Shown piece after piece: positions 31-58,292 of a stretch of 64,000 bases of DNA. The number at the start of each line of letters is the position of its first letter. Positions within the stretch are counted from its first letter, which is position 1. The notes beneath the pieces are model-generated. The model searched no databases and was not told the origin of the DNA. It saw nothing but the letters and a program-made list of their open reading frames with translations. The DNA comes from Candidatus Nomurabacteria bacterium (GTDB taxonomy: Bacteria; Patescibacteriota; Minisyncoccia; Phycocordibacterales; UBA9973), in contig JAHFNH010000001.1 in the NCBI GenBank assembly GCA_023267435.1, forward strand, positions 174,839-238,838, given 5' to 3'. The position numbers and the translations under genes are program-made.

Positions 31-300
31 ATGCACATGTTAGCTACAAAGAAAAAACAAGCAGTTATAAAGAAAAACCAAGTTCACGACAAAGATACAG
101 GTTCTCCTGAAGTTCAGGTAGCTGTGTTGTCTACTCAGATTGATGAACTTGCAAAACATTTAAAGAAACACAAGAAAGATCTTCACTCTCGCCGTGGTCT
201 TATCAAGATGGTTGCCGACAGACGCACACACCTGAAGTATTTAATGAGAAAAAGTAAACCTCGTTATGATGCATTGATGAAGAAAATGGACTTAGCTTAA
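31..300 (+). CDS. rpsO: 30S ribosomal protein S15
   Basis: 89-aa protein with S15 signature GSPEVQVAVLSTQI...HSRRGL..MV..RR.LLKYL. The start may instead be the second Met at 37. Confidence 0.9.
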   Translation: MHMLATKKKQAVIKKNQVHDKDTGSPEVQVAVLSTQIDELAKHLKKHKKDLHSRRGLIKMVADRRTHLKYLMRKSKPRYDALMKKMDLA

Positions 301-320
301 TTAAAAAAATACAAAACAAA

Positions 321-350
321 AAACCCGCATTATGCGGGTTTTTTGTTTTT
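321..350 (+). terminator. Intrinsic terminator after rpsO
   Basis: Stem cccgcat/atgcggg followed by a T-run. Confidence 0.7.
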
Positions 351-385
351 GAACTTTTAAATAGAAATTCTATTTATTGTTCTAG

Positions 386-2137
386 CTAGCGGTCGTTTTC
401 AGTGTTGTTTCCTTCACTGTTATCATCGTGTTTACGATCATCTGACCACTTTGCTGCTTTCTTGATCCAGTCTCCGACAATGCCAGTTACTTTATCGTTG
501 TTTTTGCCACTTAAACTAGGGCAACCAAACTTAAGTCTACTGTCATTCTCTTCACCGTCTCTTTTCTTATTGTCTTCTCTATCACTGTCGTTATAATTAC
601 CTTGGTCTTCGTTGTTCTTATCATCGATACTTTCTTTAGTTTGTTTATGGTCGATGATTTGAGCACAACTACATCCTCTGGTGTCAACCAAACTTACAGC
701 TTTTGCTGGAACGATATTTGGCTTCTTGGCTGTTCCAATGTTTGCCATCCAAGTCAATGCACCGTTTACATTAAACACTGCAAGATTGTTTGGCTTCAAT
801 GTTGTAACTGTATCAGCTACAGTTCCAGGACATTGATCAACTTCATCGGCGACTCCGTCTTTATCTGCATCTTTTACTCCGCAAGTAGCTACTACAGGGA
901 ATGACAAAGTTAGTGTTCCTTGATTTGGATCAAGAACAACTCCTACTGTAGTTGCTTCTCTACCAGGGGCTCTGCGTAGGGCAGGGGTTTGTGATTTAGT
1001 CAATTGCATTAATTGATCTACGTTCAATGAACTTGAATAACTTTTTCCACCGTCTGCAGACAATTCATTTGTTTTTGAACCTAAACTAAGAGTTCCTGGA
1101 TCAAAATAGAAATCTCCACCATCTGGTGCTACGTATGTAGTATTTGCTTTTGAAAGTACAACATCGTTTGTTGTTGTAGGTGCAACTGTATCAAACTTCA
1201 ATGTTCCATTTACTGCATCATATACAGCGTTGGTTAATGTGTATGTAGCTTTTGTTGTTACATCCATCATATATATAGTACCTGTTTTTGCTGTCATGTT
1301 GGCATCAAATTTAGGCATCCAATCTATATTGTTTGGAGAAAACTGTACATTTATATTGTCAGATACTAATGATCTTCCATCAAAAATTACTAGACTTAGA
1401 GGTGTTTTAAGTGTTGGATTTGTTTTATCCATAGTAACAGTTGTGTTACAAGGATCAACTGGAGGAGTACAATTATTTACCATTGATAATTTCAATGTTC
1501 CTAAATTGTTATCAGCTACCACAGAAATTTGTGTCACTACTCCTGCTGCATCCTTTACATACAATGTGGAATAATTCATTAATTCTGCTTTACCTAGAGA
1601 AGGAACGAATTTTACATTGTCGACAGAGAATGTAGCCGTTTTTGATGATAATGAAAATGTATTTACATCAAAAGATAAATCCACGCCCTTTACTGTTACT
1701 ATAGGATTTGTTTGTGAAAGTACAACGGTTGTTGTAGCTGTCACAACATCAAATGTAAGGGAAGCTCCTATTATATCAAATTTTGCATTAGTGAATGTTG
1801 TCGCTGCGTCGATAGTCTTTGTTGTTGAATAATAGAATATGCCTGATTTTGACATTAAGGTTGCCATATCAAAAGATTGAAACCAATTAGTTCCATCACT
1901 TGAAAATGCACCATTCATATTATTTGATACTAATGTAGATCTACCGTCATAAGTTATAGTATCTCCTGTGGATGTTGTATAAATGGTGTTTGTCTTATTA
2001 AGACTAACAGTTGTAGGTGGACAATTTGTCACAACCTGACCTCTTGTTAGATTTGCTATATAAACGATACCAGCAATAACAGCGACAGCTGCTAAGCCGA
2101 GGAAAACTTTGTGATGAATTTTATGCATGTTAAACAT
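386..2137 (-). CDS. Large secreted/surface protein with N-terminal signal-anchor and beta-rich S/T/N repeats. It has a thrombospondin type-3-like Ca-binding repeat (DADKDGVADEVDQC) and an acidic low-complexity C-terminus.
   Basis: 583-aa ORF with a hydrophobic N-terminus (LGLAAVAVIAGIVYIA). A DxDxDGxxDxxDxC motif is present. The LRRAPGREA motif is shared with the 1239-aa protein at 37608. Confidence 0.6.
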   Translation of the reverse strand: MFNMHKIHHKVFLGLAAVAVIAGIVYIANLTRGQVVTNCPPTTVSLNKTNTIYTTSTGDTITYDGRSTLVSNNMNGAFSSDGTNWFQSFDMATLMSKSGIFYYSTTKTIDAATTFTNAKFDIIGASLTFDVVTATTTVVLSQTNPIVTVKGVDLSFDVNTFSLSSKTATFSVDNVKFVPSLGKAELMNYSTLYVKDAAGVVTQISVVADNNLGTLKLSMVNNCTPPVDPCNTTVTMDKTNPTLKTPLSLVIFDGRSLVSDNINVQFSPNNIDWMPKFDANMTAKTGTIYMMDVTTKATYTLTNAVYDAVNGTLKFDTVAPTTTNDVVLSKANTTYVAPDGGDFYFDPGTLSLGSKTNELSADGGKSYSSSLNVDQLMQLTKSQTPALRRAPGREATTVGVVLDPNQGTLTLSFPVVATCGVKDADKDGVADEVDQCPGTVADTVTTLKPNNLAVFNVNGALTWMANIGTAKKPNIVPAKAVSLVDTRGCSCAQIIDHKQTKESIDDKNNEDQGNYNDSDREDNKKRDGEENDSRLKFGCPSLSGKNNDKVTGIVGDWIKKAAKWSDDRKHDDNSEGNNTENDR

Positions 2138-2483
2138 TTTTTTTAAAATTAAATTAATAAATTATTTTTATAATATTTTCTTTAAAACAAAACATTAGAG
2201 TCCGGTTTTTCTTTAACCAGAATCTTGTAACGACCTATTGTGTTTTTAAAGAATAACCAACTAATTGGTATATGGGATAATTTTAAACCGACAAGAACCT
2301 TAAGTCAAGGATTTAATAATTATCTTAATTTAAGTATTAATTACTTGATTTAATCAAGAAATGTTATAATTTCTTTAGGTCGATTTTTAATAATTTTATT
2401 AATTTTAATTTTAAGCGTCGCGCTTCAACAGTACGCATACCCCAAGGGTGATTCTGTTGAATCACATGATTTCGCTAAATCAT

Positions 2484-2990
2484 ATGACAGTCATAAAACA
2501 TAAAGAACAGAGAGTTGGAGTTTTTATCGATACGCAAAACGTGTATCACTCCGCTCGTAATTTGTATAAAGCGAGAGTGAATTTCGGTGCAGTTTTGAAA
2601 GAAGCGGTGGCGGGTAGAAAGCTCGTCCGCGCAGTCGCGTATGTCATCACCACAGAAGCTGGTGAAGAGAAGAATTTTTTTGAAGCTTTGACCAAGCTCG
2701 GTATCGAAACCAAGACAAAAGATTTGCAAATTTTTCATACTGGTACAAAGAAAGGAGATTGGGATGTGGGTCTCGCAGTGGACGCGATTAAAAATGCTCC
2801 GCGCTTGGACACTATCGTTCTTGTTTCCGGTGACGGTGATTTCGTTCCGCTTGTAGAATATCTTCAGACGATGACGCAAGTAGAAGTAATTTCTTTCGGA
2901 AAATCTACTTCTTCAAAACTCCGTGAAGTAGCAGACGACTTCGTGGATCTCTCAGAAAATCCTAGAAAATATTTATTTGGTAGTAAATAA
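2484..2990 (+). CDS. NYN-domain (LabA/DUF88-like, PIN-related) protein
   Basis: Motifs VGVFIDTQNV and SGDGDFVPL are typical of NYN/LabA. The ORF track starts at 2448; the Met at 2484 is preferred. Confidence 0.65.
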   Translation: MTVIKHKEQRVGVFIDTQNVYHSARNLYKARVNFGAVLKEAVAGRKLVRAVAYVITTEAGEEKNFFEALTKLGIETKTKDLQIFHTGTKKGDWDVGLAVDAIKNAPRLDTIVLVSGDGDFVPLVEYLQTMTQVEVISFGKSTSSKLREVADDFVDLSENPRKYLFGSK

Positions 2991-3000
2991 AAAGAAACAC

Positions 3001-3038
3001 AAAAGCCCCCGAGCATAGCTCGGGGGCTTTTGCTTTTT
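3001..3038 (+). terminator. Intrinsic terminator after the NYN gene
   Basis: Stem gcccccgagc/gctcgggggc plus a T-run. Confidence 0.7.
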
Positions 3039-3242
3039 ACCCTCAAAATGCTAGTATGATCAGTAGTTTTATTAGTTAATCAGTTCGCGTCTAGACACAA
3101 AGTAGTGTTCCATATCTAGGTATACAAAGTGTTAATCAACTAGTCATTCAAGAGGTTAATCACTTGGTTACAGAGATAGAGAAACAATACTGCAGTCTGG
3201 ATACGAACTAAACCTTTTCACAAGAAGTGAAAAGAAAAAAAT

Positions 3243-5363
3243 ATGCACAAGAAAGAGTATTCGATAGAAGTTGGCGGTAAAACATTAACCGCTATTTTTT
3301 CAGATTTGGCAGATCAAGCGCACGGTTCCGTGATGCTGAAATATGGCGAGACGATAGTCCTCGCGACTGCTTGTATGTCGAAAGATAAACAAGCTGGTTT
3401 AGGATTTTTTAATTTAACCGTCGACTATGCAGAAAAGTTTTATGCTGCAGGAAAAATTTTAGGTTCACAATATGTTCGTCGTGAAGGCAAACCTTCGACC
3501 GAAGCCATCCTTGCATCTCGCGTGATCGACAGAACTATCCGTCCTCTCTTTGATCAGAATCTTCGACACGCAGTGCAAGTGATCATCACAGTCATTGCTT
3601 GCGATGATAATGACCCAGCGATGCTTGCGGTGAATGCCGCATCTCTCGCTCTCGTTGTTTCAAACATTCCATGGAAGGGTCCGATCGGTTGCGTACGCGT
3701 CGGAAAGTACGATGACGAAAATTTGAAAATAAATCCTTCAACAAAACTTCGCGAAGAAGAATACCCATACAAATTTGATCTGACAGTTTGTGGAAGAGAA
3801 GGAACTATCAACATGATCGAAGCAGCCGCTCGCCAAGTGAAAGAAGAAGAACTAACCGAAGCCCTCGAACATGCCAGTGCAGAAATAACTAGACTCGAAG
3901 ATTTTCAGAAAAAAATCCAGTCAGAAATCGGCAAAGAAAAGAGAGTAATAATTCATGACAAAATCAGTGAAGAATCTGTCGCTTTATTTAAAGAAAATAT
4001 TTTACCTAAAATGGAAGCAGCAGTTTTCGCTGGTCCTGGAAAAAAGAAAATTGATGAACTTCATAACGAATGGAATAATTTGGTAAAAGAAAAATATATC
4101 AATGGTGACAGAAAAGATTTTCAGCTTGAAGATGATATTTTTGATGAAACAGAAAATGATATGCTTCATGAAAAAGCTATCAAAGAAAACAAACGTGCCG
4201 ATGGTCGCACAATGGATGAAGTGCGTGAACTCTATGCTCAGGCTGGAGGTCTCTCAAAAATTTTGCACGGTTCAGGAATATTTTATCGTGGAGGTACTCA
4301 CGTTCTTTCTGCGCTGACACTTGGTGGACCGGGAGATAAACAAGAAGTGAATGGAATGGATGTTCAGTCTTCACGCAGATTTATGCATCACTACAATTTC
4401 CCTCCATTCTCAGCCGGAGAACCAGGACGAAGCGGATTTACAAATCGTCGCGAGATAGGACACGGAGCTCTCGCTGAAAAAGCTGTCGCGATGGTTTTGC
4501 CTAGTATCGAAGAATTCCCATACACGATTCGTATCGTGTCTGAATCAATGGCATCGAATGGTTCCACTTCACAAGCAAGTATCTGTGCATCAACTCTCGC
4601 GCTCATGGATGCTGGTGTACCGATTAAAAATCCTGTCGCAGGTATTGCGATGGGTTTGATGCATGCGACTGATGATGAATATAAAATTTTGACCGACATC
4701 CAAGGTCCAGAAGATCATCACGGTGATATGGATTTCAAAGTTGCTGGTACTCGTGAAGGTATCACTGCAATACAGCTCGATGTGAAAGTAGATGGTGTGC
4801 CGATAAAAATTCTTTCTGAAGCGATGGCGCAAAGTAAAAAAGCTCGTTTAACAATCCTCGACACAATCGAAAAAGAAATTCCAAAACCTCGCGCAACTAT
4901 TTCTCCAAGTGCTCCAGAAATTTTAGTTATCAAAATCAAACCAGAACAAATCGGGGGAGTCATCGGTTCCGGTGGAAAAATAATTAAAGAGATAAAAGAA
5001 AGAACTGGCGCAGAAATAACTATCGAAGATGATGGTACTGTGTACTTCACAGGTCGTGACGGTTCTGCAGGAAAAGCAAAACAAATCGTGGAAGAAATGA
5101 CACATGAATTCAAACCCGGAGAAATCTTGCAGGGCGAGGTAGTAAAAATTGCCGACTTCGGAGCATTCGTACGTCTGAACTCTGCGACCGATGGTATGGT
5201 TCATATTTCTGAAATTGCTCCTTTCCGTGTAGAACGCGTAGCTGATATAATAAAAGAAGGTATGATCGTGCCGGTGAAAGTCATCGCTATCGATGCACAA
5301 AGAGGAAAGATTAGTCTTTCGATTAAAGAAGCAGACAAAAATTTCTTCGCACCGAAAGTTTAA
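3243..5363 (+). CDS. pnp: Polyribonucleotide nucleotidyltransferase (PNPase)
   Basis: 706 aa. Two RNase PH domains and C-terminal KH and S1 domains are recognisable. It lies in the conserved rpsO neighbourhood. Confidence 0.95.
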   Translation: MHKKEYSIEVGGKTLTAIFSDLADQAHGSVMLKYGETIVLATACMSKDKQAGLGFFNLTVDYAEKFYAAGKILGSQYVRREGKPSTEAILASRVIDRTIRPLFDQNLRHAVQVIITVIACDDNDPAMLAVNAASLALVVSNIPWKGPIGCVRVGKYDDENLKINPSTKLREEEYPYKFDLTVCGREGTINMIEAAARQVKEEELTEALEHASAEITRLEDFQKKIQSEIGKEKRVIIHDKISEESVALFKENILPKMEAAVFAGPGKKKIDELHNEWNNLVKEKYINGDRKDFQLEDDIFDETENDMLHEKAIKENKRADGRTMDEVRELYAQAGGLSKILHGSGIFYRGGTHVLSALTLGGPGDKQEVNGMDVQSSRRFMHHYNFPPFSAGEPGRSGFTNRREIGHGALAEKAVAMVLPSIEEFPYTIRIVSESMASNGSTSQASICASTLALMDAGVPIKNPVAGIAMGLMHATDDEYKILTDIQGPEDHHGDMDFKVAGTREGITAIQLDVKVDGVPIKILSEAMAQSKKARLTILDTIEKEIPKPRATISPSAPEILVIKIKPEQIGGVIGSGGKIIKEIKERTGAEITIEDDGTVYFTGRDGSAGKAKQIVEEMTHEFKPGEILQGEVVKIADFGAFVRLNSATDGMVHISEIAPFRVERVADIIKEGMIVPVKVIAIDAQRGKISLSIKEADKNFFAPKV

Positions 5364-5380
5364 GAAATTAAAAATAAAAA

Positions 5381-5420
5381 ATTCCCCACAAGATCTAATC
5401 TGTGGGGAATTTTGTTTTTC
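5381..5420 (+). terminator. Intrinsic terminator after pnp
   Basis: Stem ttccccaca/tgtggggaa plus a T-run. Confidence 0.7.
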
Positions 5421-5421
5421 A

Positions 5422-6021
5422 TTAAGAATAGTCAAAAACTGCATGTACTTTTTTATCTTCTATAATTTTAAGTTTACGCTTCATTCGCCATTCTTTTTCT
5501 GCTCTTTCATAATTATGTTTTTCTGGCATATTATCTATGCCTGTATTAACAAGTGTTACAAAAGTTTTTAATCTAGTCACATCTTTCTCAAGTGTTTTTA
5601 AAAGAAACATTCCTACATCTGAGGATCCGTCATTCATCATACTTTTAATGAAACCTGAAACATAATGCTTTGGTGAATAGTGCATAAGAGCTTCTCTTAG
5701 ACAATCAATCGCAACAGAATAATTGATTTCTTTATTTTGCTCTTTTGCTTCTTTTATGAAAAAAATCATATTACTTAATTCAGGATGCGGGTAACACAAT
5801 TTTTGTACATAAAATCGTATTAAAGCTTTTTCAAAATATGTATATTTTTTTGATTCACCACTTTTGATTAAATTAAGCATTTTTGAACAATTATCCGAAA
5901 CCATAATTTCATAGAATTTTATTTTTTTCATATGTCCACACGTAAATTCCCAAATTGCAATTACTATTGTAGAGTTCACAAGGGTTATAACCCAATACAA
6001 AGGATCTTTTAATGTTTCCAT
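5422..6021 (-). CDS. Hypothetical protein
   Basis: 199-aa ORF with no recognisable motif. Confidence 0.4.
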   Translation of the reverse strand: METLKDPLYWVITLVNSTIVIAIWEFTCGHMKKIKFYEIMVSDNCSKMLNLIKSGESKKYTYFEKALIRFYVQKLCYPHPELSNMIFFIKEAKEQNKEINYSVAIDCLREALMHYSPKHYVSGFIKSMMNDGSSDVGMFLLKTLEKDVTRLKTFVTLVNTGIDNMPEKHNYERAEKEWRMKRKLKIIEDKKVHAVFDYS

Positions 6022-6213
6022 TTTATTTAATTTTTAAGTTACAAATAACACTATTGTTATTCCGAGATAAGTATAGCAGATTGTCAATATAATGTCAAGT
6101 ATATTCGTCATAATATATTAAAATAATCTATATAAAATAAGCTATAATAATACTATTTAAAATAATGTGGGATTGACTTGACACAGATATAACAAATAAT
6201 ATATACTTAAATT

Positions 6214-6996
6214 ATGAAAAAAGAACTTTCACCAATTGAAAAACAGTTGAAAATAATAGGTCTTTCGGAAAATGAAATCGTTATGTATATGGCGCTTTTG
6301 GAACTTGGAAAAGGGACCGTTTCTCAGATATCAAGAAAAGCATTACTAAATAGAACGACTGGCTATGATGTTTTGAATAGATTGTCGTCAAAAAAACTGA
6401 TTAGTATTTCTGGAAAGGAACCAAAACAAGAATATGTCGCTGAATCACCAGATAATATCGAAAAGTTAATTGCAGGAGAACTGGAACGAAGACAAAATGA
6501 GTTAAATGAAGCAAGACAAATTATTCCAGAGCTTAAATCTATGCACAATGTAAGCGGTCGTCCGCAGATAAGATTTTATGAAGGTAAAGATGGTTTGAAA
6601 CAAGTATACGAAGATACGCTTAGTTCACACGAGCCGATTCTCGCATATGCTAGTGTTGATGATGTTCACGCTGCGCTTCCCGGATATTTTCCAACATATT
6701 ACAAGCGCAGATCGAAAAATGGTATATCTATCAGAGCAATATTTACAGATAATCCTGAAGGACGAGAACTTTCAAAACACGACAAAGAAGAAATGCGTGA
6801 ATCAGCTTTTGTTCCAGAAGATAAATTCGGATTTCACCCTGAAATAAACATTTACGACAATAAAGTGATGATCGCTTCATGGCGGGAGAAATTGGGAATC
6901 ATTATTGAATCAACTGAGATTGCTGATGCGATGAAAAAGATATACGAGCTGGCTTGGGCTGAGGCGAAAAGATTAGATAAGGAAATTACAAAATAA
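6214..6996 (+). CDS. TrmB-family winged-HTH transcriptional regulator
   Basis: N-terminus LKIIGLSENEIVMYMALLELGKGTVSQISRKALLNRTTGYDVLNRL resembles the TrmB HTH. Confidence 0.6.
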   Translation: MKKELSPIEKQLKIIGLSENEIVMYMALLELGKGTVSQISRKALLNRTTGYDVLNRLSSKKLISISGKEPKQEYVAESPDNIEKLIAGELERRQNELNEARQIIPELKSMHNVSGRPQIRFYEGKDGLKQVYEDTLSSHEPILAYASVDDVHAALPGYFPTYYKRRSKNGISIRAIFTDNPEGRELSKHDKEEMRESAFVPEDKFGFHPEINIYDNKVMIASWREKLGIIIESTEIADAMKKIYELAWAEAKRLDKEITK

Positions 6997-7062
6997 AACC
7001 ACTTTACAGTAGCTTTACAGTAATAAAAATACTACTTTACAGTAGATATTATTTCTGATAGA

Positions 7063-8112
7063 ATGGAAATCATGAATGAAGTAATTAAAAAAATTCATAC
7101 TTCTCTTGATAAGGAACCAGCAGGACTAAGGTCTAGTGATATTGCAAAACAAGTCGGAGTATCACGAGTAACTATTCTTTCCCAGTTAAAGAAACTTGAA
7201 AAACAAGGGTTGATTATTCGTTTTGATAATGGACCTAAAACTTGGTATATATTAACCAAACATCAAGATGCTTTATTTCAAAAAGGGCTTTCTTTTTGGA
7301 AAATTTACAAAAACACAAAACTAGAAGAACATATCGTTTTAGAAGAATTACAAAATTACCTTCTTAAAAAGATAAAATTATCTGACCAAGCTAAATCTAT
7401 ATTTGGCTATGCTTTTTCTGAAATGATGAATAATGCGATTGAACATTCTAGGTCCAAAAGAATAAAGGTTGAATGTTCTGTTCAAAAAAAAGATATTATA
7501 TGTGTAATAGAGGATTATGGTATTGGAGCTTTCAATAATGTTAAAACAAAAAAGAGACTTCCAAATGAAACAGAAGCAGCTCGCGAAATTTTGAAGGGTA
7601 AAGTTACCACAGACACAACAGCTCACACTGGACAGGGAATTTTCTTTACTTCACGAGCAACAGACAGGTTTATGATTGAAAGTCATTCCCATGCGATTGT
7701 CGTAGAAAATGAAAATGGAAATAATGTAAGAATAGTAGAATTAAAAAAGAAAATTCGAGGTACTGCAGTTACTTTTTTTATTAAAATAAATACAAAACTT
7801 CATTTAACTAGTGTTTTTAGTAAATATGCGGAAGCTGATATAGATGGATTTAATACAACTGAGATTCATGTTAATTTATATGCAAACGGAGACCATCTTG
7901 TTTCTAGGTCACAAGCAAGACGTATTGTTGTTGGGCTCGATAAGTTTTCAAAAATAATTTTTGATTTTTCAGGAATTGCTCATATAGGACAGGGATTTGC
8001 TGATGAAATATTCAGAGTTTTTGCAAAAAAATATTCAACAATCGAAATAAAACCAATTCATATGAAAAAAGAAGTGAGCTTTATGGTAAGGAGAGCACGA
8101 GCTGAAAAATAA
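7063..8112 (+). CDS. Fusion protein: winged HTH + GHKL/anti-sigma-type ATPase (HATPase_c) + C-terminal STAS-like DUF4325
   Basis: N-terminal wHTH (SDIAKQVGVSRVTILSQLKKLEKQGLI). N-box AFSEMMNNAIEHS and DYGIG of GHKL kinases. C-terminal SRSQARRIVVGLDKFSKIIFDFSGIAHIGQGFADEIF matches DUF4325/STAS. Confidence 0.6.
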   Translation: MEIMNEVIKKIHTSLDKEPAGLRSSDIAKQVGVSRVTILSQLKKLEKQGLIIRFDNGPKTWYILTKHQDALFQKGLSFWKIYKNTKLEEHIVLEELQNYLLKKIKLSDQAKSIFGYAFSEMMNNAIEHSRSKRIKVECSVQKKDIICVIEDYGIGAFNNVKTKKRLPNETEAAREILKGKVTTDTTAHTGQGIFFTSRATDRFMIESHSHAIVVENENGNNVRIVELKKKIRGTAVTFFIKINTKLHLTSVFSKYAEADIDGFNTTEIHVNLYANGDHLVSRSQARRIVVGLDKFSKIIFDFSGIAHIGQGFADEIFRVFAKKYSTIEIKPIHMKKEVSFMVRRARAEK

Positions 8113-8153
8113 ATTTATTGTGTATAATAAAGATATTATTGAATAATTAAAAT

Positions 8154-9005
8154 ATGGAAACAGAAAATAATAAAAAAAATAAAATTGTTAAAACTTATGC
8201 CGAAGATATGGCGAAGGTTATTGAGAGCAACGAAGCTGGAGTTGTGAGAGAGATAATTCATGAAAAGGAAGAGCAGGAAATGCAAAAGGAGAATCTATCT
8301 CCGGAAAGCAAAAGAAACAAAATGTTTATGCTGATCGGCATTGTTTGTATTTTTTTGGCTTTAGGTTCGATTGTTTTTATTGTCGTATTTCGACAGCAAA
8401 TTTTTTCTGTATCAGTCGCTCCGCAGTTCGTGCCGTTGATTTTTACTGACAAGGCGCAATTTGTGGAAGTGGGTGGTTTGGCAAAAGATAAAATCGCTCA
8501 GACAGTCTTAAATGAAGTGAATGCTACACAAGTGAAAGGTGGCGGAGTGGAAGGTATTTATCTGACAGAAAATAAGGCAGTTTTAGGATTGAGAAAATTT
8601 TTAACTCTAATCAAGGCGAATATCGACCAGACTCAGATGCAATTCGTGGATGATAACTTTTTAGTTGGCGTGGCAAAGAATGACACGAATGATTTATTTA
8701 TTTTATTGAAAACTCGTTCTTTTTCCGATATCTTTCCGCAAATGCGTAGTTGGGAACCGAAGATGTTTTCTGATTTGCATGGATTCTTCGGAGTGCCGAT
8801 TTCTGTCGATACGAATTATTTGTTGACCAAAAATTTCGAGGACGGAGTTATTGCTAACAAAAATGCCCGCATTCTTCATGATAAAGACGGCAAGATAGTA
8901 TTGATGTATGTATTTGTGGATGATACGTCTGTATTAATAACCGATACCGAGACAGCCACCAGCGAAGTAATCCTCCGCCTCGCTTCGAGCCAGATTAAGA
9001 AATAG
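8154..9005 (+). CDS. Single-pass membrane protein of unknown function
   Basis: One TM helix (MFMLIGIVCIFLALGSIVFIVVF) followed by a ~200-aa extracytoplasmic domain. Confidence 0.5.
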   Translation: METENNKKNKIVKTYAEDMAKVIESNEAGVVREIIHEKEEQEMQKENLSPESKRNKMFMLIGIVCIFLALGSIVFIVVFRQQIFSVSVAPQFVPLIFTDKAQFVEVGGLAKDKIAQTVLNEVNATQVKGGGVEGIYLTENKAVLGLRKFLTLIKANIDQTQMQFVDDNFLVGVAKNDTNDLFILLKTRSFSDIFPQMRSWEPKMFSDLHGFFGVPISVDTNYLLTKNFEDGVIANKNARILHDKDGKIVLMYVFVDDTSVLITDTETATSEVILRLASSQIKK

Positions 9006-9057
9006 ATCATCAAAATGGGCCATTTGCCATTAATCTTTAAAATGTTATCATACCAGT

Positions 9058-9417
9058 ATGCCATTAGATAAGAAAAAAATTAAAGAAGAATTAGAAAAAG
9101 AGAGAGATATTCTATTAGAAGAAATGAAAGACATGGGTAAATTAAACCCCGAAACAGGCGAATGGGAAGCTACTCCAGAGGAGCAAGACATTCCTGAAGC
9201 TGATCAGAATGATATGGCGGATAGATTTTCGAACTTTGAAGAAAAAAGTTCAATGATTAGAGATTTAGGCGCTAGGTTAAATAATATTTTACGCGCTTTG
9301 AAAGGAGTAAACAGGGAATCATTTGGTAAGTGTGAAGTTTGCAAAAAGCCTATTGAGGCGGCACGTCTTGCAGCTAATCCAGCGGCTCGAACTTGCAAGG
9401 AACATTTAAACAGTTAA
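9058..9417 (+). CDS. DksA/TraR-family C4 zinc-finger protein
   Basis: C-terminal CEVCKKPIEAARLAANPAARTCKEHL, i.e. CxxC-N17-CxxH, with an acidic coiled-coil N-terminus. Confidence 0.7.
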   Translation: MPLDKKKIKEELEKERDILLEEMKDMGKLNPETGEWEATPEEQDIPEADQNDMADRFSNFEEKSSMIRDLGARLNNILRALKGVNRESFGKCEVCKKPIEAARLAANPAARTCKEHLNS

Positions 9418-9429
9418 TTTTTTAAAAAA

Positions 9430-11046
9430 ATGAGTTTCGCAAAAGTTTATTCAGCACAAGTGAATCTACTTTCCGGAGTTATCGTGACTATCGAAGTGGA
9501 CTTGTCCCGAGGTCTTCATGCTTTCAGTATTGTCGGCTTGCCTGACAAGTCCGTCGACGAGTCTAAAGATCGCGTCAGCTCAGCTATCAAAAATTCAGGC
9601 TTTCAATCTCCTAAAGCCAAGAATCAAAAAATAATAGTTTCTTTATCACCCGCAGATCTTAAAAAAGAAGGGTCTTTTTTTGATCTCGGTATCGCACTTT
9701 CTTATATGCTTGCGGCTGGGGATTTGAAATTTAATCCGGAGAAAAAGATTTTCTTAGGTGAACTCGGGCTCGATGGCACTTTGCGCAGGATCAAAGGTGC
9801 TCTGCCTCTCGTGCAGGAGGCGAAAAGAATGGGTTTTGAAGAAGTTTATTTGCCGAAAGAAAATGCAGTCGAGGCGGCGTTGGTGGATGGGATTAAAATT
9901 TTCGGAGCAGGTAGTTTGAAAGAAGTTGTTGACCATATAGATGAAAGCAAACCTAGAAAATTTACTGATGGTCTGGCCGAGCGTACTCGCGAAGGAGAAC
10001 CGAGGACCTCAGAAAATTTTACTAGGTTTGCTGAAGAAGGAAAAATCCCCGTCCAGCCAAAAACAGAAATAAAATATGAAAAAGAAAGAAAAGGTTCCGA
10101 TTTTGCAGATGTTCGCGGACAAGAAGGTGCGAAACGTGGGCTCGAGATAGCCGCTGCCGGCGGGCATAATATAGCTATGTATGGCCCGCCGGGCACTGGC
10201 AAGACGATGCTGGCTCGAGCTTTCTCCGGACTTTTACCGGATTTAATTCTCGAAGATGTTTTGGAAATTACCGGCATACATTCTGTCGCAGGTGCGACGC
10301 GCGGAGAACTCGTTTCTAGTCCGCCTTTCCGTGCGCCACACCATACTTCGTCTTATGTTTCACTTATCGGTGGAGGAACTTTTCCAAAGCCAGGCGAAGT
10401 GACGCTCGCACATAAAGGAGTTTTATTTTTGGATGAATTTCCAGAATTTGAAAAAAGAGTTATTGAATCTTTGCGTCAGCCACTTGAAGACAATATCGTT
10501 TCGATTTCTCGCGCAAAAGGTTCGGCTATTTTTCCTTCGAATTTTATTTTAGTCGCAGCGATGAATCCGTGTCCTTGCGGAAATGCCGGCTCGAAACAAA
10601 AAGCTTGCATTTGCAAACCGTCAGACTTAGACAGATACAAAAGAAAACTTTCCGGCCCGATTATGGATCGTATTGATCTTTGGGTTTCCGTGAATAACAT
10701 TGATTACAAAAAACTTGGTGAAGACGGAATGGGGGAGAAGAGTGAAAATATAAAAGAGAGAGTCTCAAGAGCACGAGAAGTACAGAAAAATAGATTTCAG
10801 AAATTTGAAAGAACTATCAAAACAAACAGTGAGATGAATGTGAAAGATTTATCCAATATGGTGAAGCTAGCTGATGATGTTCGAAATCTTTTAGACAACA
10901 GTGCTGAAAGATTAGCCCTCTCCGCCCGTGCCTATCACCGCGTCATAAAAATAGCCCGCACGATAGCAGACCTTGAAAATTCTGAGGATATAACCTCAGC
11001 GCATATTCTCGAAGCTATACAATATCGTCCGAAAGTAAATAACTAA
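9430..11046 (+). CDS. comM: YifB/ComM-family Mg-chelatase-like AAA+ ATPase
   Basis: Lon-like N-domain, Walker A GPPGTGKT, and the MCM-like zinc insertion CPCGNAGSKQKACIC. Confidence 0.9.
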   Translation: MSFAKVYSAQVNLLSGVIVTIEVDLSRGLHAFSIVGLPDKSVDESKDRVSSAIKNSGFQSPKAKNQKIIVSLSPADLKKEGSFFDLGIALSYMLAAGDLKFNPEKKIFLGELGLDGTLRRIKGALPLVQEAKRMGFEEVYLPKENAVEAALVDGIKIFGAGSLKEVVDHIDESKPRKFTDGLAERTREGEPRTSENFTRFAEEGKIPVQPKTEIKYEKERKGSDFADVRGQEGAKRGLEIAAAGGHNIAMYGPPGTGKTMLARAFSGLLPDLILEDVLEITGIHSVAGATRGELVSSPPFRAPHHTSSYVSLIGGGTFPKPGEVTLAHKGVLFLDEFPEFEKRVIESLRQPLEDNIVSISRAKGSAIFPSNFILVAAMNPCPCGNAGSKQKACICKPSDLDRYKRKLSGPIMDRIDLWVSVNNIDYKKLGEDGMGEKSENIKERVSRAREVQKNRFQKFERTIKTNSEMNVKDLSNMVKLADDVRNLLDNSAERLALSARAYHRVIKIARTIADLENSEDITSAHILEAIQYRPKVNN

Positions 11047-42153: not shown

Positions 42154-42193
42154 TAACAAAAACTTGTTAATCTTTAACAAGAAATAGTTAATC

Positions 42194-42230
42194 AAAAAAT
42201 CCTCCGCCACTGGCGGAGGATTTTTTGTTG
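42194..42230. terminator. Intrinsic terminator (CCTCCGCCA...TGGCGGAGG family)
   Basis: Stem atcctccgccac/tggcggaggat flanked by A- and T-runs. Confidence 0.7.
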
Positions 42231-47380: not shown

Positions 47381-47403
47381 AATTTATAATTGACATATAC
47401 TCA

Positions 47404-47440
47404 AAAACCTGCTATAAATATAGCAGGTTTTTGTTTTTTG
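47404..47440 (+). terminator. Intrinsic terminator after secY
   Basis: Stem cctgctat/atagcagg plus a T-run. Confidence 0.7.
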
Positions 47441-47541: not shown

Positions 47542-48324
47542 ATGAAAATTCCAAAAGACACAGAAGAAGGCAAATTGTTCATTGCTTTGTTTATGGGAGA
47601 CAACCCTATTTTTAAAAATCAGACCCGTTTAGCAGAAAAGCTATTGGAAAATGAGAAATCTTTTTTTAAGGCTGAAAAAGGAGAATCTGCTGAAAAAATA
47701 AACACAAAAATGGTGAATCTAAAATCTCTGCTTTCTCAAATTTTTAATCCTAACGCAAGAAGGAAAATAAAGAATGAGTTTATAGAATCAGTTTGTTTAG
47801 TTGTAACTGAACAGTTGAAATCGAAACAATTTTCTTCTGAGGAAATTGAAGCAATCGTTTCTTCCATTAGATCTTCTTTAATTGCTATTAAGGAATCGCC
47901 AAAATCTTTAAAGAAGGGCAAACAGGAAACAGACATCGGGTTACTAATAAAAGAATGCCAATTTTTTTATTTTGTTGGTTGTTCTTGTGACCTATTTAGA
48001 GCAATACCAGATTTAGAAAATCTTGAATTGTCTAAAGGAAAGTTTTTTGTACCAGCAATTTTTCCGAAAGTACAAAAGAAAATAATTGAAAGGAAATCAG
48101 AAATTTTTGAAATGAAAGGAAATTTTTTAGATTTTATTTTCTTTAGAAATTATAATTGGAAACCACAAGTTCGTGGGTTTCTAATTAGAAATAGTGGTGA
48201 ATTGCTAATTGAATTGAATGAAGGTGAAACATCAAGTTGGGAATATGAAATCTACAAAAATAAACTTATGACTATTGTTTACAACCAACGGTTTATTAAA
48301 AATGGTTCCGTAGATAAAGTTTAA
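47542..48324 (+). CDS. Hypothetical protein
   Basis: 260-aa ORF. Confidence 0.4.
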   Translation: MKIPKDTEEGKLFIALFMGDNPIFKNQTRLAEKLLENEKSFFKAEKGESAEKINTKMVNLKSLLSQIFNPNARRKIKNEFIESVCLVVTEQLKSKQFSSEEIEAIVSSIRSSLIAIKESPKSLKKGKQETDIGLLIKECQFFYFVGCSCDLFRAIPDLENLELSKGKFFVPAIFPKVQKKIIERKSEIFEMKGNFLDFIFFRNYNWKPQVRGFLIRNSGELLIELNEGETSSWEYEIYKNKLMTIVYNQRFIKNGSVDKV

Positions 48325-48340
48325 AAACATTTAAAGACAC

Positions 48341-48375
48341 AGCCCTGTAATGAATATTGCGGGGCTGTTTTAATT
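48341..48375. terminator. Bidirectional terminator
   Basis: Stem acagccctg/cggggctgt with one G-U pair. Confidence 0.55.
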
Positions 48376-48380
48376 ATTGT

Positions 48381-48947
48381 CTATTCTTTTATCCACTTTT
48401 TATATTCTTCAACAACAAGATGGGCGACTTGATGAAGGTTATTTTCATTTGTGTCGATCACTAGGTCAAAATTATTTTTGTCGGTATGATCCACGCCGTA
48501 ATAATCCATATATCTTTTTTTCTCGCTTTCGAGTCGGCGAGTTATTTTTTGACAAATTTCTTCTGCGTCAGTAGAGTGCTCGCTTTCTTGTCTTAGCTTG
48601 TTTACTTTTAAATTGCTGAGAATTCTTTGTTTGGCTATTTCCGGTGGAAGGTCGAGATATACTTTGAAAGATGTTGGTATCCAGTGAAAAGCCAAACGTG
48701 AATCAATAACAATATTATCCATTTCTCCAGCTTTCTTCACTTCTTCATCTATTTTTAAGTCTATTGAATGGTCGATCTCCGCCATGACTGAAAGCTCATT
48801 TAAGGAAATTCCCATATCGGTGGCAATTTTGCGCATAAAATCCCCAGAGGAAAATCGTTTAAAACCAAGTTCTTTCGCCACAAAATCAGCTGTGCTGGAT
48901 TTTCCACTGCCGGGTAAGCCGTTGATTGTTATAATCTCTTTTTTCAT
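48381..48947 (-). CDS. cmk: Cytidylate kinase-like NMP kinase (short, archaeal-type)
   Basis: P-loop INGLPGSGKSS and FSSGDFMRKIA. Confidence 0.6.
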   Translation of the reverse strand: MKKEIITINGLPGSGKSSTADFVAKELGFKRFSSGDFMRKIATDMGISLNELSVMAEIDHSIDLKIDEEVKKAGEMDNIVIDSRLAFHWIPTSFKVYLDLPPEIAKQRILSNLKVNKLRQESEHSTDAEEICQKITRRLESEKKRYMDYYGVDHTDKNNFDLVIDTNENNLHQVAHLVVEEYKKWIKE

Positions 48948-48970
48948 ATTTCAAGTATAACATAACAAAT

Positions 48971-49075
48971 CTCCCCCTTGATAAGGGGGAGTGCCTGAAA
49001 GGCGAGGGGGTAATTTTCAAAAAATCACCACTCTCCAAACCCCTCCTCAACAAGGAGGGGAATTATTTGATTTTG
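48971..49075 (+). promoter_or_regulatory. GC-rich leader with alternative hairpins upstream of adk
   Basis: Hairpin ctccccctt-gat-aagggggag (48971-48991) and hairpin cccctcct-caaca-aggagggg (49040-49060). Segment cgagggggta (49003-49012) can pair with either 5' arm. A weak U-tract follows the second hairpin. Confidence 0.4.
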
Positions 49076-49101
49076 AATATAAAATCCTGTATTCTTATTG
49101 G

Positions 49102-49689
49102 ATGCAAGGTGATACTTATGTATTTTTTGGAATGGTTGGCTCCGGCAAAGGGACTCAGGTAAAATTACTGATGGATTTTTTGAAAGTACGGGACGGCAAG
49201 GAGATAATTTACATCTATCCAGGCAGTGAATACAGGAAATTAGTGGACTCTGGAAGCTATACAGGCTCCTTGGTGAAGGATTCTTTGGCACGTGGAGAAT
49301 TACAGCCTGATTTCTTAACAAACTCAATTTTCACGAATATTTTGATTAATTCTCTTACTAACGAAGAGCATTTAATATCTGATGGGTATCCTAGAACCAT
49401 ATCTCAATCTCAAACTTTTGAGTCGATGGTTAATTTCTATAAGCGGGGAAATGTAAAGATGATCTATATTGAAGTTAGTAAAGAAGAATCAATGAAGCGA
49501 AATATGTTGCGTGGCAGAGGTGATGATACAGAAAAAGGTTTAGCAAAAAGATTTGACGAATATATAAACAAAGTTATTCCAGCGATGGATTATTTCAAAG
49601 ATAAAGAAGGGTATGAACTTTTATCTATCAATGGTGAGCAGTCAGTCGAAGACGTGCACAAAGATATTATTAAAGCATTAAGTTTTTAG
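49102..49689 (+). CDS. adk: Adenylate kinase
   Basis: FFGMVGSGKGTQ, LISDGYPRT and RGRGDDTEKGLAKRF. The ORF track starts at 48991; the Met at 49102 is preferred. Confidence 0.75.
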   Translation: MQGDTYVFFGMVGSGKGTQVKLLMDFLKVRDGKEIIYIYPGSEYRKLVDSGSYTGSLVKDSLARGELQPDFLTNSIFTNILINSLTNEEHLISDGYPRTISQSQTFESMVNFYKRGNVKMIYIEVSKEESMKRNMLRGRGDDTEKGLAKRFDEYINKVIPAMDYFKDKEGYELLSINGEQSVEDVHKDIIKALSF

Positions 49690-50489: not shown

Positions 50490-51263
50490 ATGGGGATAAT
50501 AATTAAAACACCAGCAGAAATAGAAAAGATAAGAGAAGCCAGTAAGCGATTGGCTTTTGTTTTGGACGAAGTAAAAAAAATAGTTAAGCCTGGAGTTTCC
50601 ACTAAAGAGCTTGATAAATATGCAGAGAAATTAATCAGGGAACAGGGTGATTCTCCCGCTTTCCTTAATTATCGTCCTGTTGGGGCAAAAAAACCTTTTC
50701 CAGCGTCATTGTGCGTTTCAGTGAATGAAGAAGTGGTACATGGCATTCCAAAGGAAGATAAAATATTACAAGAGGGCGACATTGTTTGCATTGATTTGGG
50801 GATTAATCATAAAGGTGTCTTTGCTGATATGGCTTACACTGTGCCGGTAGGGGAAGTTTCATCTGCATCTAAAAAACTTATGGATACCACACAGCGTAGT
50901 TTGATGGTAGGTATCGATGCGGCGCGTGGAGGTGGCAGGGTTGGAGATATTGGTTATGCGATTGAAAGTTTTGTTAAAAAACAAGGAAGGTTTGGTATCG
51001 TGGAAGTTTTAGCGGGGCATGGAGTCGGACGTGAGATACATGAGGATCCATATATTCCAAATTTTGGCAAAAAGGGGACAGGGGCGAAGCTAGTACCAGG
51101 AATGGTGATAGCCATCGAGCCGATGTTAAACAATGGCACCAAGAATGTAGTAATTGGAAAAGATGATTGGACCATATCAACTGCCGACAAAAAACGTAGC
51201 GCGCATTTCGAGCATACTATTTTAATTACCGAAGATGAACCAGAAATACTAACGATCCAATAA
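50490..51263 (+). CDS. map: Methionine aminopeptidase type I
   Basis: Metal ligands in DIVCIDLG, HGVGREIHE and EHT. Confidence 0.9.
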   Translation: MGIIIKTPAEIEKIREASKRLAFVLDEVKKIVKPGVSTKELDKYAEKLIREQGDSPAFLNYRPVGAKKPFPASLCVSVNEEVVHGIPKEDKILQEGDIVCIDLGINHKGVFADMAYTVPVGEVSSASKKLMDTTQRSLMVGIDAARGGGRVGDIGYAIESFVKKQGRFGIVEVLAGHGVGREIHEDPYIPNFGKKGTGAKLVPGMVIAIEPMLNNGTKNVVIGKDDWTISTADKKRSAHFEHTILITEDEPEILTIQ

Positions 51264-51267
51264 AAAT

Positions 51268-51302
51268 AAAAAATCCTCCACCAGATGGTGGAGGATTTTT
51301 TA
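51268..51302. terminator. Intrinsic terminator (CCTCCACCA...TGGTGGAGG variant)
   Basis: Stem atcctccaccag/tggtggaggat plus a T-run. Confidence 0.7.
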
Positions 51303-51318
51303 TTTTTATTATATTGTT

Positions 51319-55514: not shown

Positions 55515-55550
55515 TAAAAAATCCTCCGCCAGCTGGCGGAGGATTTTTAT
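55515..55550. terminator. Intrinsic terminator (CCTCCGCCA...TGGCGGAGG family)
   Basis: Stem atcctccgccagc/tggcggaggat plus a T-run. Confidence 0.7.
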
Positions 55551-58253: not shown

Positions 58254-58292
58254 TAAAAACCCTCCGCCAAACTGGCGGAGGGTTTTTAGTTT
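58254..58292. terminator. Intrinsic terminator (CCTCCGCCA...TGGCGGAGG family)
   Basis: Stem accctccgccaa/tggcggagggt plus a T-run. Confidence 0.7.

What the first reader, a model, noticed from the sequence alone, without database searches (positions are those of the whole stretch)
48962..49110. GC-rich leader with mutually exclusive hairpins between divergent cmk and adk; the ORF-track N-terminus of adk is probably leader, not protein
Two strong hairpins, ctccccctt/aagggggag and cccctcct/aggagggg, flank a segment gagggggt. That segment can pair with either upstream C-rich arm, so three structures compete. The arrangement has the anti-antiterminator, antiterminator and sequestor logic of attenuators. 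A weak U-tract follows the last hairpin. The purine arms are also SD-like (GGAGG), which is rare in this genome. Downstream is the nucleotide-kinase operon adk-pyrH(-map). cmk is divergent and ndk is 5 kb away. I therefore propose a nucleotide-responsive or translational control element. The 37 codons that the ORF track places before Met-38 of adk run through these hairpins and are low-complexity, so the real start is 49102.
Basis: partly seen in the sequence, partly recalled or inferred. Interest (0 to 1): 0.5.

Follow-up and report, generated by a model that had tools for sequence, protein, structure and literature searches.

The report
Triplex-motif DNA repeats between two promoters
The GC-rich hairpins upstream of adk are real, but they lie upstream of the promoters of two back-to-back leaderless genes and belong to a known, widespread class of intergenic "intrastrand triplex" (BoxC/PIT) DNA repeats, so they are very unlikely to be a nucleotide-sensing RNA leader.

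Summary
Observation confirmed.

Interpretation not supported, for four reasons.
- The hairpins are not mutually exclusive. All coexist in the minimum-energy fold, and the proposed alternative pairings cost 12-13 kcal/mol.
- They are probably not in a leader. An invariant TTGATT-N17-TATTCT-N6-ATG block lies between the hairpins and adk. This genome has no Shine-Dalgarno sites at 64 gene starts, and -10 boxes 5-8 nt before ATG are strongly enriched. Both adk and cmk therefore look leaderless, with the hairpins between their promoters.
- Of about 45 related cmk|adk spacers, most are 22 nt or AT-rich. Only one (L050) carries the homologous insert, and there hairpin 1 is broken.
- The segment GAGGGGGT(A) is a perfect 9-position mirror repeat of AAGGGGGAG. 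That is the third arm of a purine-motif intrastrand triplex motif, the BoxC/PIT/TM repeat class of E. coli and many other bacteria.

The same modules occur at other intergenic sites and in both orientations in related genomes, and in many viral contigs.

Verdict: a new member of a known repeat class. Its function is unknown, as it is for the whole class. Interest is low to moderate.

The parts
48381..48947 (-). cmk-like nucleoside-monophosphate kinase gene, divergent from adk
   Evidence: Pfam Cytidylate_kin2 at 8.7e-16. The divergent pairing with adk is conserved in most relatives.
48948..48962 (-). Inferred cmk promoter. The extended -10 TGTTATACT is at 48954-48962 on the minus strand, followed by 6 nt (TGAAAT) and the ATG, which implies a leaderless mRNA.
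   Evidence: Sequence. The same TGnT(A/T)TAAT-N5-6-ATG layout is found in relatives. TANNNT 5-8 nt before ATG is enriched in the window. Inferred; no start site has been mapped.
48971..48979 (+). Pyrimidine arm CTCCCCCTT of triplex motif A (5' arm of hairpin H1)
48983..48991 (+). Purine arm 1, AAGGGGGAG, Watson-Crick partner of the pyrimidine arm (3' arm of H1)
   Evidence: H1 alone folds at -14.8 kcal/mol.
48992..49003 (+). Loop 2 of motif A, TGCCTGAAAGGC, which contains its own mini-hairpin GCCT-GAA-AGGC (H2)
   Evidence: -2.9 kcal/mol. L050 has GCCC-AAA-GGGC, with the T-A pair replaced by C-G. L026 has a similar loop, TGCCAAAGGT.
49004..49012 (+). Purine arm 2, GAGGGGGTA. It is a mirror repeat of arm 1 and gives 9 of 9 allowed purine-motif triads (G.G:C, A.A:T, T.A:T).
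   Evidence: My triplex-motif scan found one locus in the window and none in 30 block-shuffled windows. The same arm accompanies the same hairpin in unrelated viral contigs.
49013..49026 (.). AT-rich remnant of the ancestral inter-promoter spacer (AATTTTCAAAAAAT), continuing into CACC
   Evidence: It resembles ATTTTT..AAAAAGATAACC in relatives without the insert. Homology is inferred by eye.
49027..49036 (-). ACCACTCTCC. On the minus strand it reads GGAGAGTGGT, a decayed third arm of motif B. It also pairs with GAGGGGGT in the RNA/DNA fold (H3).
   Evidence: Only about 5 of 8 triads by hand alignment, and the window motif B did not pass my scan at one mismatch or fewer. The L050 counterpart GGGGGGGT has 7 of 8. 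H3 folds at -9.9 kcal/mol.
49040..49060 (.). Hairpin H4, CCCCTCCT-CAACA-AGGAGGGG, the Watson-Crick core of motif B
   Evidence: -14.3 kcal/mol. It is conserved in L050 with loop CGACA. The same arms occur at L010 8529-8549 with a perfect third arm GGGGTGGT. It differs from CCCCTCTCC-TTAACAA-GGAGAGGGG of L012/L026 by a symmetric 2-nt deletion in each arm.
49067..49101 (+). Inferred adk promoter: -35 TTGATT 49067-49072, 17-nt spacer, -10 TATTCT 49090-49095, then 6 nt before the ATG. The predicted +1 is A49102, so the mRNA is leaderless.
   Evidence: The block is invariant in the window, L050, L044, L051 and L002. It is present in all relatives that have spacers of 40 nt or more. Inferred; not mapped.
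49102..49689 (+). adk (195 aa), with the true start at 49102
   Evidence: Pfam ADK matches from residue 46 of the 232-aa ORF. Homologue lengths and P-loop offsets agree.

Best explanation
The 95 bp at 48971-49060 are two inverted copies of a G/C-rich intrastrand triplex motif repeat, the class called BoxC, PIT elements or TM/TMECO in E. coli and other bacteria.

Copy A, on the + strand, is intact:
- pyrimidine arm CTCCCCCTT
- 3-nt loop
- purine arm AAGGGGGAG
- a 12-nt loop that forms its own mini-hairpin
- mirror-repeat purine arm GAGGGGGTA

Copy B, on the - strand, keeps its hairpin (CCCCTCCT/AGGAGGGG), but its third arm has decayed.

The pair sits in the only dispensable DNA between two back-to-back promoters, which appear to start transcription directly at the ATGs of cmk and adk. 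It is therefore most likely not transcribed with either gene and is not an attenuator or riboswitch.

Shown:
- the anatomy of the motif
- its statistical significance
- its patchy presence among relatives
- its occurrence at other intergenic sites, in both orientations, and in distant genomes
- the conserved promoter block downstream of it

Inferred:
- Both mRNAs are leaderless.
- The element was gained by insertion and is decaying without strong selection. Different parts are broken in the window and in L050.
- Like its E. coli counterparts, it has no promoter or terminator role. At most it is a structure-prone, instability-prone spacer.
For: Motif anatomy and significance:
- My triplex-motif scan finds exactly one locus in the 64-kb window (48971-49012, 9 of 9 triads) and none in 30 block-shuffled windows.
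- The published class has the consensus CCCTCNCCC-N3-6-GGGNGAGGG-N3-GGGNGAGGG. It is always intergenic, shows no strand bias, often occurs as inverted pairs, varies between close strains, and is linked to local instability. The same paper cites earlier work that found no promoter or terminator activity (PMC4666352).

Related copies elsewhere:
- Related CPR genomes carry near-canonical copies, for example L026 CCCTCTCC-TTAACAA-GGAGAGGG-CTG-GGGTGAGG. Compare E. coli NCTC9064 CCCTCTCCC-TTTCA-GGGAGAGGG-CTG-GGGTGAGGG.
- These copies occur between cmk|adk, pyrH|map and rplO|secY, and in a cluster in L010. They occur in both orientations, and L015 has two copies.
- Window H1 differs by one loop base from L041 1037-1057 (reverse complement), which lies between pyrH and map and has its own third arm.
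- Each hairpin is scored on both strands. Among hairpins with exactly the H1 arms in viral contigs, 18 of 36 hairpin-strand instances have a valid third arm, against 0.7 expected. That is roughly one arm per hairpin.
- For the CCCCTCTCC and CCCCTCCT hairpins the counts are 130 of 318 and 84 of 221, against 11 and 14 expected.

Patchiness:
- The cmk|adk spacer is 22 nt in 13 loci and AT-rich in about 20. It carries GC inserts in about 10, with sister pairs that differ (L015 vs L021, L031 vs L036).

Promoter position:
-. 24 of 64 gene starts have TANNNT 5-8 nt upstream, against 9% of all ATGs. The strict version is 15 of 64 against 1.6%. None of the 64 has an SD.

Hairpins coexist. No Rfam family matches.
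Against: - Loop 2 of copy A is 12 nt. That is outside the 1-6 nt (ITxF) and 0-10 nt (Hoyne) ranges used to define the class, although 11 of its 12 nt form a mini-hairpin.
- The covariance model built from the CCTCACCCC-type CPR elements scores the window hairpins at only 10-12 bits, and blastn finds no E. coli match for the window element. Kinship therefore rests on motif architecture and on short exact-arm matches.
- Only one such locus occurs in 64 kb, so 'dispersed repeat' is shown for relatives and not for this genome.
- No transcription start site has been mapped. A transcript from further upstream that crosses the element cannot be excluded. There is a 10-of-12 promoter-like match at 48549-48577 on the + strand, but such matches occur at chance frequency.
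- Triplex formation in vivo has never been shown for this class (PMC4666352).
- Other relatives carry non-triplex GC hairpins in the same slot (L007, L008, L053). These abut the T-rich -35 box like terminators and hint at some selected role for a hairpin there.
Confidence: 0.78

Rival explanations
1. Back-to-back insulating terminators. H4 plus UUAUUUGAUUUU on the + strand, and H1 plus AUUUGUUAUGUUAU on the - strand, stop stray or antisense transcripts before they run into the neighbouring promoter. These transcripts could be read-through from the ribosomal-protein/secY operon, or divergent starts from either promoter.
For: - The consensus scan flags both hairpins as terminator-like, each pointing at the adjacent promoter.
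- In relatives, unrelated GC hairpins occupy the same slot with their 3' arm ending in GGGG directly before TTGATTTT (L007, L008/L032, L015, L031, L053, L052). That is a hairpin followed by a U-rich tract.
Against: - The T runs are not adjacent to the stems (AAUUAU..., AUUUGU...).
- The other strong hairpins in intergenic DNA in the window all lie at gene 3' ends, and nearly all are A-tract/GC-stem/T-tract terminators.
- No other divergent gene pair in the window has such hairpins.
- Copies between pyrH|map and rplO|secY lack T tracts.
- PIT elements showed no terminator activity in E. coli (Hoyne and Maher 2002, as cited in PMC4666352).
- Most relatives do without any hairpin.
Confidence: 0.1
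2. One reading: a transcribed adk leader whose alternative hairpins form a nucleotide-responsive attenuator or translational switch.
For: - The predicted structure is strong.
- The GAGGGGGT segment has partial complementarity to both C-rich arms.
- A U-rich tract follows H4.
- The downstream genes are nucleotide kinases.
Against: - The conserved promoter lies downstream of the hairpins, with -10 six nt from the ATG.
- Leaderless, SD-free starts are the rule in this genome.
- The alternative pairings are 12-13 kcal/mol worse than the fold in which all hairpins coexist.
- The element is absent from nearly all orthologous spacers, and H1 is broken in the only homologue.
- The same modules occur at unrelated intergenic sites and in phage-like contigs.
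- No Rfam match.
Confidence: 0.03
3. A small independent RNA gene, or a palindromic operator for a DNA-binding regulator shared by cmk and adk.
For: - The position between two promoters is typical for operators.
- The palindromes are perfect.
- A TGTTATAAT box on the + strand at 48926-48934 could in principle drive a short transcript of roughly 125 nt that ends at H4.
Against: - The sequences in this slot differ completely between relatives and are usually absent, so no conserved operator or sRNA exists.
- The + strand TGTTATAAT is the reverse complement of the conserved Ile-Ile-Thr codons of cmk.
- No Rfam hit.
- The mirror-repeat third arm is unexplained by either idea.
Confidence: 0.05

Closest known systems
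BoxC / PIT (potential intrastrand triplex) elements / TMECO triplex motifs of E. coli and other bacteria (Bergler 1992; Hoyne et al. 2000; Hoyne and Maher 2002; Holder et al. 2015, PMC4666352)
   Same: - Three-block architecture: pyrimidine arm, complementary purine arm, then a mirror-repeat purine arm obeying G.G:C, A.A:T and T.A:T.
- G/C-rich.
- Strictly intergenic, in either orientation.
- Frequent inverted pairs.
- Presence or absence varies between close relatives, with small deletions that leave a hairpin.
- CPR relatives of the window carry copies nearly identical to the E. coli consensus.
   Different: - The window arms are CTCCCCCTT/AAGGGGGAG/GAGGGGGTA rather than CCCTCNCCC/GGGNGAGGG/GGGNGAGGG.
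- Loop 2 is 12 nt with a mini-hairpin instead of 3 nt.
- The second copy has lost its third arm.
- The host is an AT-rich (36% GC), SD-less CPR bacterium.
- The element lies between two back-to-back leaderless promoters.
- Only one locus occurs in 64 kb.
REP / BIME elements (repetitive extragenic palindromes, mosaic clusters)
   Same: Short GC-rich extragenic palindromes combined in mosaic clusters in either orientation. They are patchy among strains and their role is disputed.
   Different: - There is no conserved GTAG-type 5' tetranucleotide.
- No associated RAYT transposase was looked for or seen.
- Copy number in this genome appears low.
- REPs have no mirror-repeat third arm.
Transcription attenuators and riboswitch expression platforms
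   Same: GC-rich hairpins with some alternative complementarity, and a U-rich tract, upstream of a biosynthetic operon.
   Different: - The element lies upstream of the inferred promoter.
- The hairpins are not mutually exclusive.
- It is not conserved in orthologous positions.
- No aptamer and no leader peptide.

Membership tests
Intrastrand triplex motif repeats (BoxC/PIT/TM, class II purine motif) | Pyrimidine arm plus Watson-Crick complementary purine arm (stem 6-15, at most one mismatch) | tested here: met
   CTCCCCCTT/AAGGGGGAG, 9 of 9.
Intrastrand triplex motif repeats (BoxC/PIT/TM, class II purine motif) | A second purine arm antiparallel to the first (mirror repeat) giving only G.G:C, A.A:T or T.A:T triads | tested here: met
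   GAGGGGGTA gives 9 of 9 triads. No hits in 30 shuffled windows. The same arm accompanies the same hairpin in unrelated contigs, 18 of 36 instances against 0.7 expected. Copy B fails in the window (about 5 of 8) and passes with one mismatch in L050.
Intrastrand triplex motif repeats (BoxC/PIT/TM, class II purine motif) | Short loops (ITxF 1-6 nt; Hoyne 0-10 nt) | tested here: not met
   Loop 1 is 3 nt, which passes. Loop 2 is 12 nt (48992-49003). 11 of its 12 nt form a 4-bp mini-hairpin that would bring the arms together. L026 has a similar 10-nt loop.
Intrastrand triplex motif repeats (BoxC/PIT/TM, class II purine motif) | Match to the TMECO consensus CCCTCNCCC-N3-6-GGGNGAGGG-N3-GGGNGAGGG | tested here: not met
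   The window arms differ, so this is a variant. blastn against E. coli finds nothing. CPR relatives (L026, L012, L015) come within one base per arm, and L026 hits 2979 E. coli genomes at 82-87% identity.
Intrastrand triplex motif repeats (BoxC/PIT/TM, class II purine motif) | Intergenic, multi-copy, either orientation, variable among close relatives | tested here: inconclusive
   Intergenic location, both orientations and patchiness are shown in relatives. The window has a single locus in 64 kb, and the rest of the genome was not available.
Intrastrand triplex motif repeats (BoxC/PIT/TM, class II purine motif) | The single strand actually folds into a triplex (CD/NMR) | not testable with these tools
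   ViennaRNA does not model Hoogsteen triads.
Transcription attenuator / riboswitch leader | Lies between the transcription start and the start codon | tested here: not met
   The conserved -35/-10 block lies 3' of the hairpins and the predicted +1 is the ATG. This is an inference from sequence, not from a mapped TSS.
Transcription attenuator / riboswitch leader | Mutually exclusive terminator and antiterminator of comparable stability | tested here: not met
   The alternatives are 11.8 and 13.3 kcal/mol worse. The pairing probability of H1 and H4 is above 0.999.
Transcription attenuator / riboswitch leader | Conserved, covarying structure in orthologous leaders | tested here: not met
   Absent from about 35 of 45 orthologous spacers. 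Only L050 is homologous, and H1 is broken there. No Rfam hit.
REP/BIME | High copy number and an associated RAYT (Y1 transposase) | not tested
   Only 64 kb of the genome is in hand, and no transposase search was done.

The most novel reading that the evidence does not exclude
The triplex/cruciform-prone pair is not inert. It sits exactly where two back-to-back leaderless promoters generate the most negative supercoiling, so it could extrude H-DNA or a cruciform as transcription rises. That would absorb supercoils and couple or buffer the expression of the cmk and adk-pyrH nucleotide kinase genes. This would be a DNA-structure switch rather than an RNA switch. It might also explain why unrelated GC palindromes have repeatedly been fixed in this same slot in different CPR lineages.
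Probability: 0.06. Interest if true: 0.65.

Novelty: new member of a known kind. Interest (0 to 1): 0.3.

Why it matters
- It removes a false riboswitch/attenuator candidate and corrects the adk start codon.
- It extends the puzzling, cross-phylum BoxC/PIT triplex-motif repeats to the Candidate Phyla Radiation, in a tiny, AT-rich, SD-less genome. I found no paper reporting this class in CPR. Near-identical arms in E. coli, CPR bacteria and many phage-like contigs sharpen the open question of how these repeats spread and what they do.
- The analysis also gives sequence-level evidence that this CPR lineage relies on leaderless mRNAs with promoters abutting the start codon. That matters for gene calling and for judging any proposed 'leader' in these genomes.

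Tried and rejected
- Rfam scans of the region at E up to 10, and of 12 element-bearing loci at gathering thresholds, found nothing relevant.
- A covariance model (R1) built from five CCTCACCCC-type CPR elements recovered copies at four intergenic contexts. It scored the window hairpins at only 10-12 bits, so it cannot establish membership.
- MITE/IS200-like insertion was considered. I looked by eye for target-site duplications and for a common 5' flanking tetranucleotide (TTGAT/TCAA) and found none consistent (sequences). Rejected as unsupported.
- REP/RAYT was considered but no transposase search was run.
- A DNA-uptake-sequence idea was dropped, because the 8-mers occur only inside the elements.
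- The terminator idea is kept as a minor rival.
- Three literature searches on CPR leaderless mRNAs, SD usage and CPR palindromic repeats found nothing specific.
- Searching papers for the arm sequences themselves led to Holder et al. 2015.
- A search for later functional work on intrastrand triplex repeats found no new function.
- The neighbour-joining tree from 195-aa adk is weak, so gain and loss counts are only indicative.

Full report
**What is in the sequence**

The window is an AT-rich genome whose proteins match Candidatus Nomurabacteria/Paceibacterota. Positions 48948-49101 are the 154-bp spacer between two divergent genes:
- a cmk-like kinase at 48381-48947 on the minus strand (Pfam Cytidylate_kin2)
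- adk (Pfam ADK), followed by a UMP-kinase-like gene and map

The spacer folds far better than shuffled sequence on both strands: z = -5.35 on the + strand and -3.6 on the - strand.

**The adk start**

- 87 of the 120 best homologues are 195 aa, and most hits align to 82-84% of the 232-aa ORF (195/232 = 84%).
- 97 of 120 have the P-loop at offset 9, as it is from Met-38 in the window protein.
- The few longer N-termini are unrelated to each other.

**Are the hairpins mutually exclusive?**

They are not. In the minimum-energy structure four hairpins coexist:

| Hairpin | Coordinates | Energy (kcal/mol) |
|---|---|---|
| H1 | 48971-48991 | -14.8 |
| H2 | 48993-49003 | -2.9 |
| H3 | 49004-49036 | -9.9 |
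| H4 | 49040-49060 | -14.3 |

Forcing GAGGGGG to pair with either C-rich arm costs 11.8 or 13.3 kcal/mol. H1 and H4 each have pairing probabilities above 0.999.

**Is it a leader?**

I fetched 19 related loci from genomes, 24 from metagenomes and about 10 via exact-protein look-ups. The divergent cmk|adk pair is conserved in most of them.

The adk promoter:
- Directly upstream of every adk ATG with a spacer of 40 nt or more lies the block TTGATT-N17/18-TATTCT (or TATTGT)-N6-7-ATG.
- The block is invariant in the window, L050, L044, L051 and L002.
- In the window the -35 is 49067-49072, the -10 is 49090-49095, and the predicted +1 is A49102.

The cmk promoter on the other strand reads TGTTATACT-N6-ATG.

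This layout is general in the window:
- None of the 64 gene starts has GGAG or GAGG at -20..-4.
- 24 of 64 have TANNNT 5-8 nt before the ATG, against 9% of all ATGs.
- With a stricter -10 definition the figures are 15 of 64 against 1.6%.

Both genes therefore look leaderless, and the hairpins lie upstream of both promoters. This is inference from sequence; no start site has been mapped.

**Comparative test**

The cmk|adk spacer falls into three classes:
- 22 nt in 13 loci, consisting of overlapping back-to-back extended -10 boxes
- AT-rich and 40-110 nt in about 20 loci, folding at only -2 to -19 kcal/mol
- 88-161 nt with a GC-rich insert in about 10 loci

All inserts occupy one slot, between the two -35 elements (GATAAC|C|TTGATT).

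Only L050 (76% adk identity) carries an insert homologous to the window's. There H1 is broken (CTCCCCCTT...AAGTGGAG), H2 has a T-A to C-G change, and H4 is kept. Closer relatives (L044, 82% identity; L051, L002, L017) lack the insert. On an adk tree, sister pairs differ: L015 has an insert and L021 does not, and L031 has an insert while L036 has the 22-nt spacer.

**What the element is**

Several relatives (L009, L015, L026, L031, L040) carry CCTCACCCC...CCCCTCTCC-loop-GGAGAGGGG...GGGGTGAGG in the same slot. The same element also lies between pyrH|map (L012, L015, L021, L033 and others), between rplO|secY (L005/L024), and in a cluster in L010. It occurs in both orientations, and L015 has two copies.

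The window hairpins recur elsewhere:
- H1 recurs in L041 between pyrH and map, with one loop difference.
- The H4 arms recur at L010 8529-8549.

Exact-pattern scans of viral contigs found the same hairpins in many contigs of 39-70% GC. They are often multi-copy and have the same flanking arms.

Searching the literature for the arm sequences themselves led to Holder et al. 2015 (PMC4666352). These are the BoxC / PIT / TMECO 'intrastrand triplex motifs'. The architecture is a pyrimidine arm, a complementary purine arm, and a second purine arm that mirrors the first, so that it can lie antiparallel in the major groove through G.G:C, A.A:T and T.A:T triads.

The window fits this architecture exactly. 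AAGGGGGAG (48983-48991) is mirrored by GAGGGGGTA (49004-49012), 9 of 9 triads. I wrote an ITxF-style scan to test it:
- one locus in the 64-kb window
- none in 30 block-shuffled windows
- perfect 8-11-triad motifs in the CPR relatives

In the viral contigs each hairpin was scored on both strands, and the counts are hairpin-strand instances:

| Hairpin arms | With a valid third arm | Expected from shuffled flanks |
|---|---|---|
| CTCCCCCTT/AAGGGGGAG (exactly H1) | 18 of 36, about one per hairpin | 0.7 |
| CCCCTCTCC | 130 of 318 | 11 |
| CCCCTCCT | 84 of 221 | 14 |

A CPR copy (L026) hits intergenic DNA in 2979 E. coli genomes. One hit reads CCCTCTCCC-TTTCA-GGGAGAGGG-CTG-GGGTGAGGG, against L026 CCCTCTCC-TTAACAA-GGAGAGGG-CTG-GGGTGAGG.

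Inverted pairs of this kind are also described for E. coli.

**How it most likely works**

According to PMC4666352, this class:
- is always intergenic, with no strand bias
- forms a very stable triplex as single-stranded DNA in vitro, though no in vivo triplex was detected
- is associated with local sequence instability and with small deletions that leave hairpins

That paper also cites earlier work (Hoyne and Maher 2002) that found no promoter or terminator activity, and cites evidence that purine-motif triplexes do not form in RNA.

The window data fit this picture. The slot is an indel hot spot, different parts have decayed in the window and in L050, and most relatives do without the element.

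My best reading (confidence about 0.78) is a structure-prone repeat pair lodged in the only dispensable DNA between two promoters, with no riboregulatory role. Its effect on expression, if any, would be at the DNA level.

**Caveats**
- Loop 2 is 12 nt, longer than the class definitions allow, although it folds on itself.
- The window arms are a variant of the E. coli consensus.
- The covariance model and blastn do not link the window element to the canonical copies.
- Only one locus was seen in 64 kb.
- No TSS data exist.
- Other relatives carry non-triplex GC hairpins abutting the T-rich -35 (L007, L008, L053). This keeps a terminator/insulator role alive as a minor rival (about 0.1).

**Verdict**

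The element is a new member, in CPR bacteria, of a known but functionally unexplained repeat class.

Noticed in passing
whole window (64 gene starts): No gene start has GGAG or GAGG at -20..-4. About a third have a TANNNT box 5-8 nt before the ATG (24 of 64, against 9% of all ATGs). This lineage appears to run on SD-less, largely leaderless initiation.
   Followed up: partly
window 42193-42227, 51259-51310, 55517-55548, 58254-58288: Four bidirectional terminators share almost the same stem, (T/C)CCTCC(G/A)CC...GG(C/T)GGAGG(A/G), flanked by A and T tracts. They look like a small family of near-identical terminators. The one after map is conserved in L002.
   Followed up: no
L001, L003, L005, L010, L012, L024, L033-L038 (cmk|adk spacer): In 13 relatives the whole divergent spacer is 22 nt. 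It is a near-palindrome, ATGTGCTATAATAGCACAT-like, that reads as an extended -10 box on both strands. This is an extreme case of overlapping back-to-back leaderless promoters.
   Followed up: partly
L007 3900-3985, L008 2987-3018 (identical in L032), L046 2300-2330, L052, L053 (slot just 5' of TTGATT): Unrelated GC-rich hairpins without a triplex third arm occupy the same slot in other lineages. Each ends in GGGG immediately before the -35 TTGATT. The slot is an insertion/deletion hot spot, or a hairpin there is repeatedly selected.
   Followed up: partly
L121 (viral contig, GC 0.68), 31-10021: Twelve copies of CCCCTCCTTSAAGGAGGGG in 11 kb, several as doublets about 85 nt apart with mirror third arms (GAGGGGAGGT). 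This is a very dense triplex-motif array in a putative phage contig.
   Followed up: no
L010 8405-8565: A cluster of four GC hairpins or triplex modules (CCCCTCTC.., GCCTGCCTGCCGGCAGGCAGG, CCCCTGATAAGGGG, CCCCTCCTTTTGGAGGAGGGG-CT-GGGGTGGT). It lies right after a small ORF that looks AbrB/antitoxin-like (not tested) and directly upstream of a TGTATAAT-N7-ATG leaderless start. The module types are the same as in the window but in a different order.
   Followed up: partly
window 47542-48324: A 260-aa ORF inserted between secY and cmk has no Pfam match. It is flanked by terminators at 47402-47433 and 48339-48368. A weak sub-threshold Rfam hit (rli40, E = 4e-4) overlaps the second terminator and is probably spurious.
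   Followed up: no
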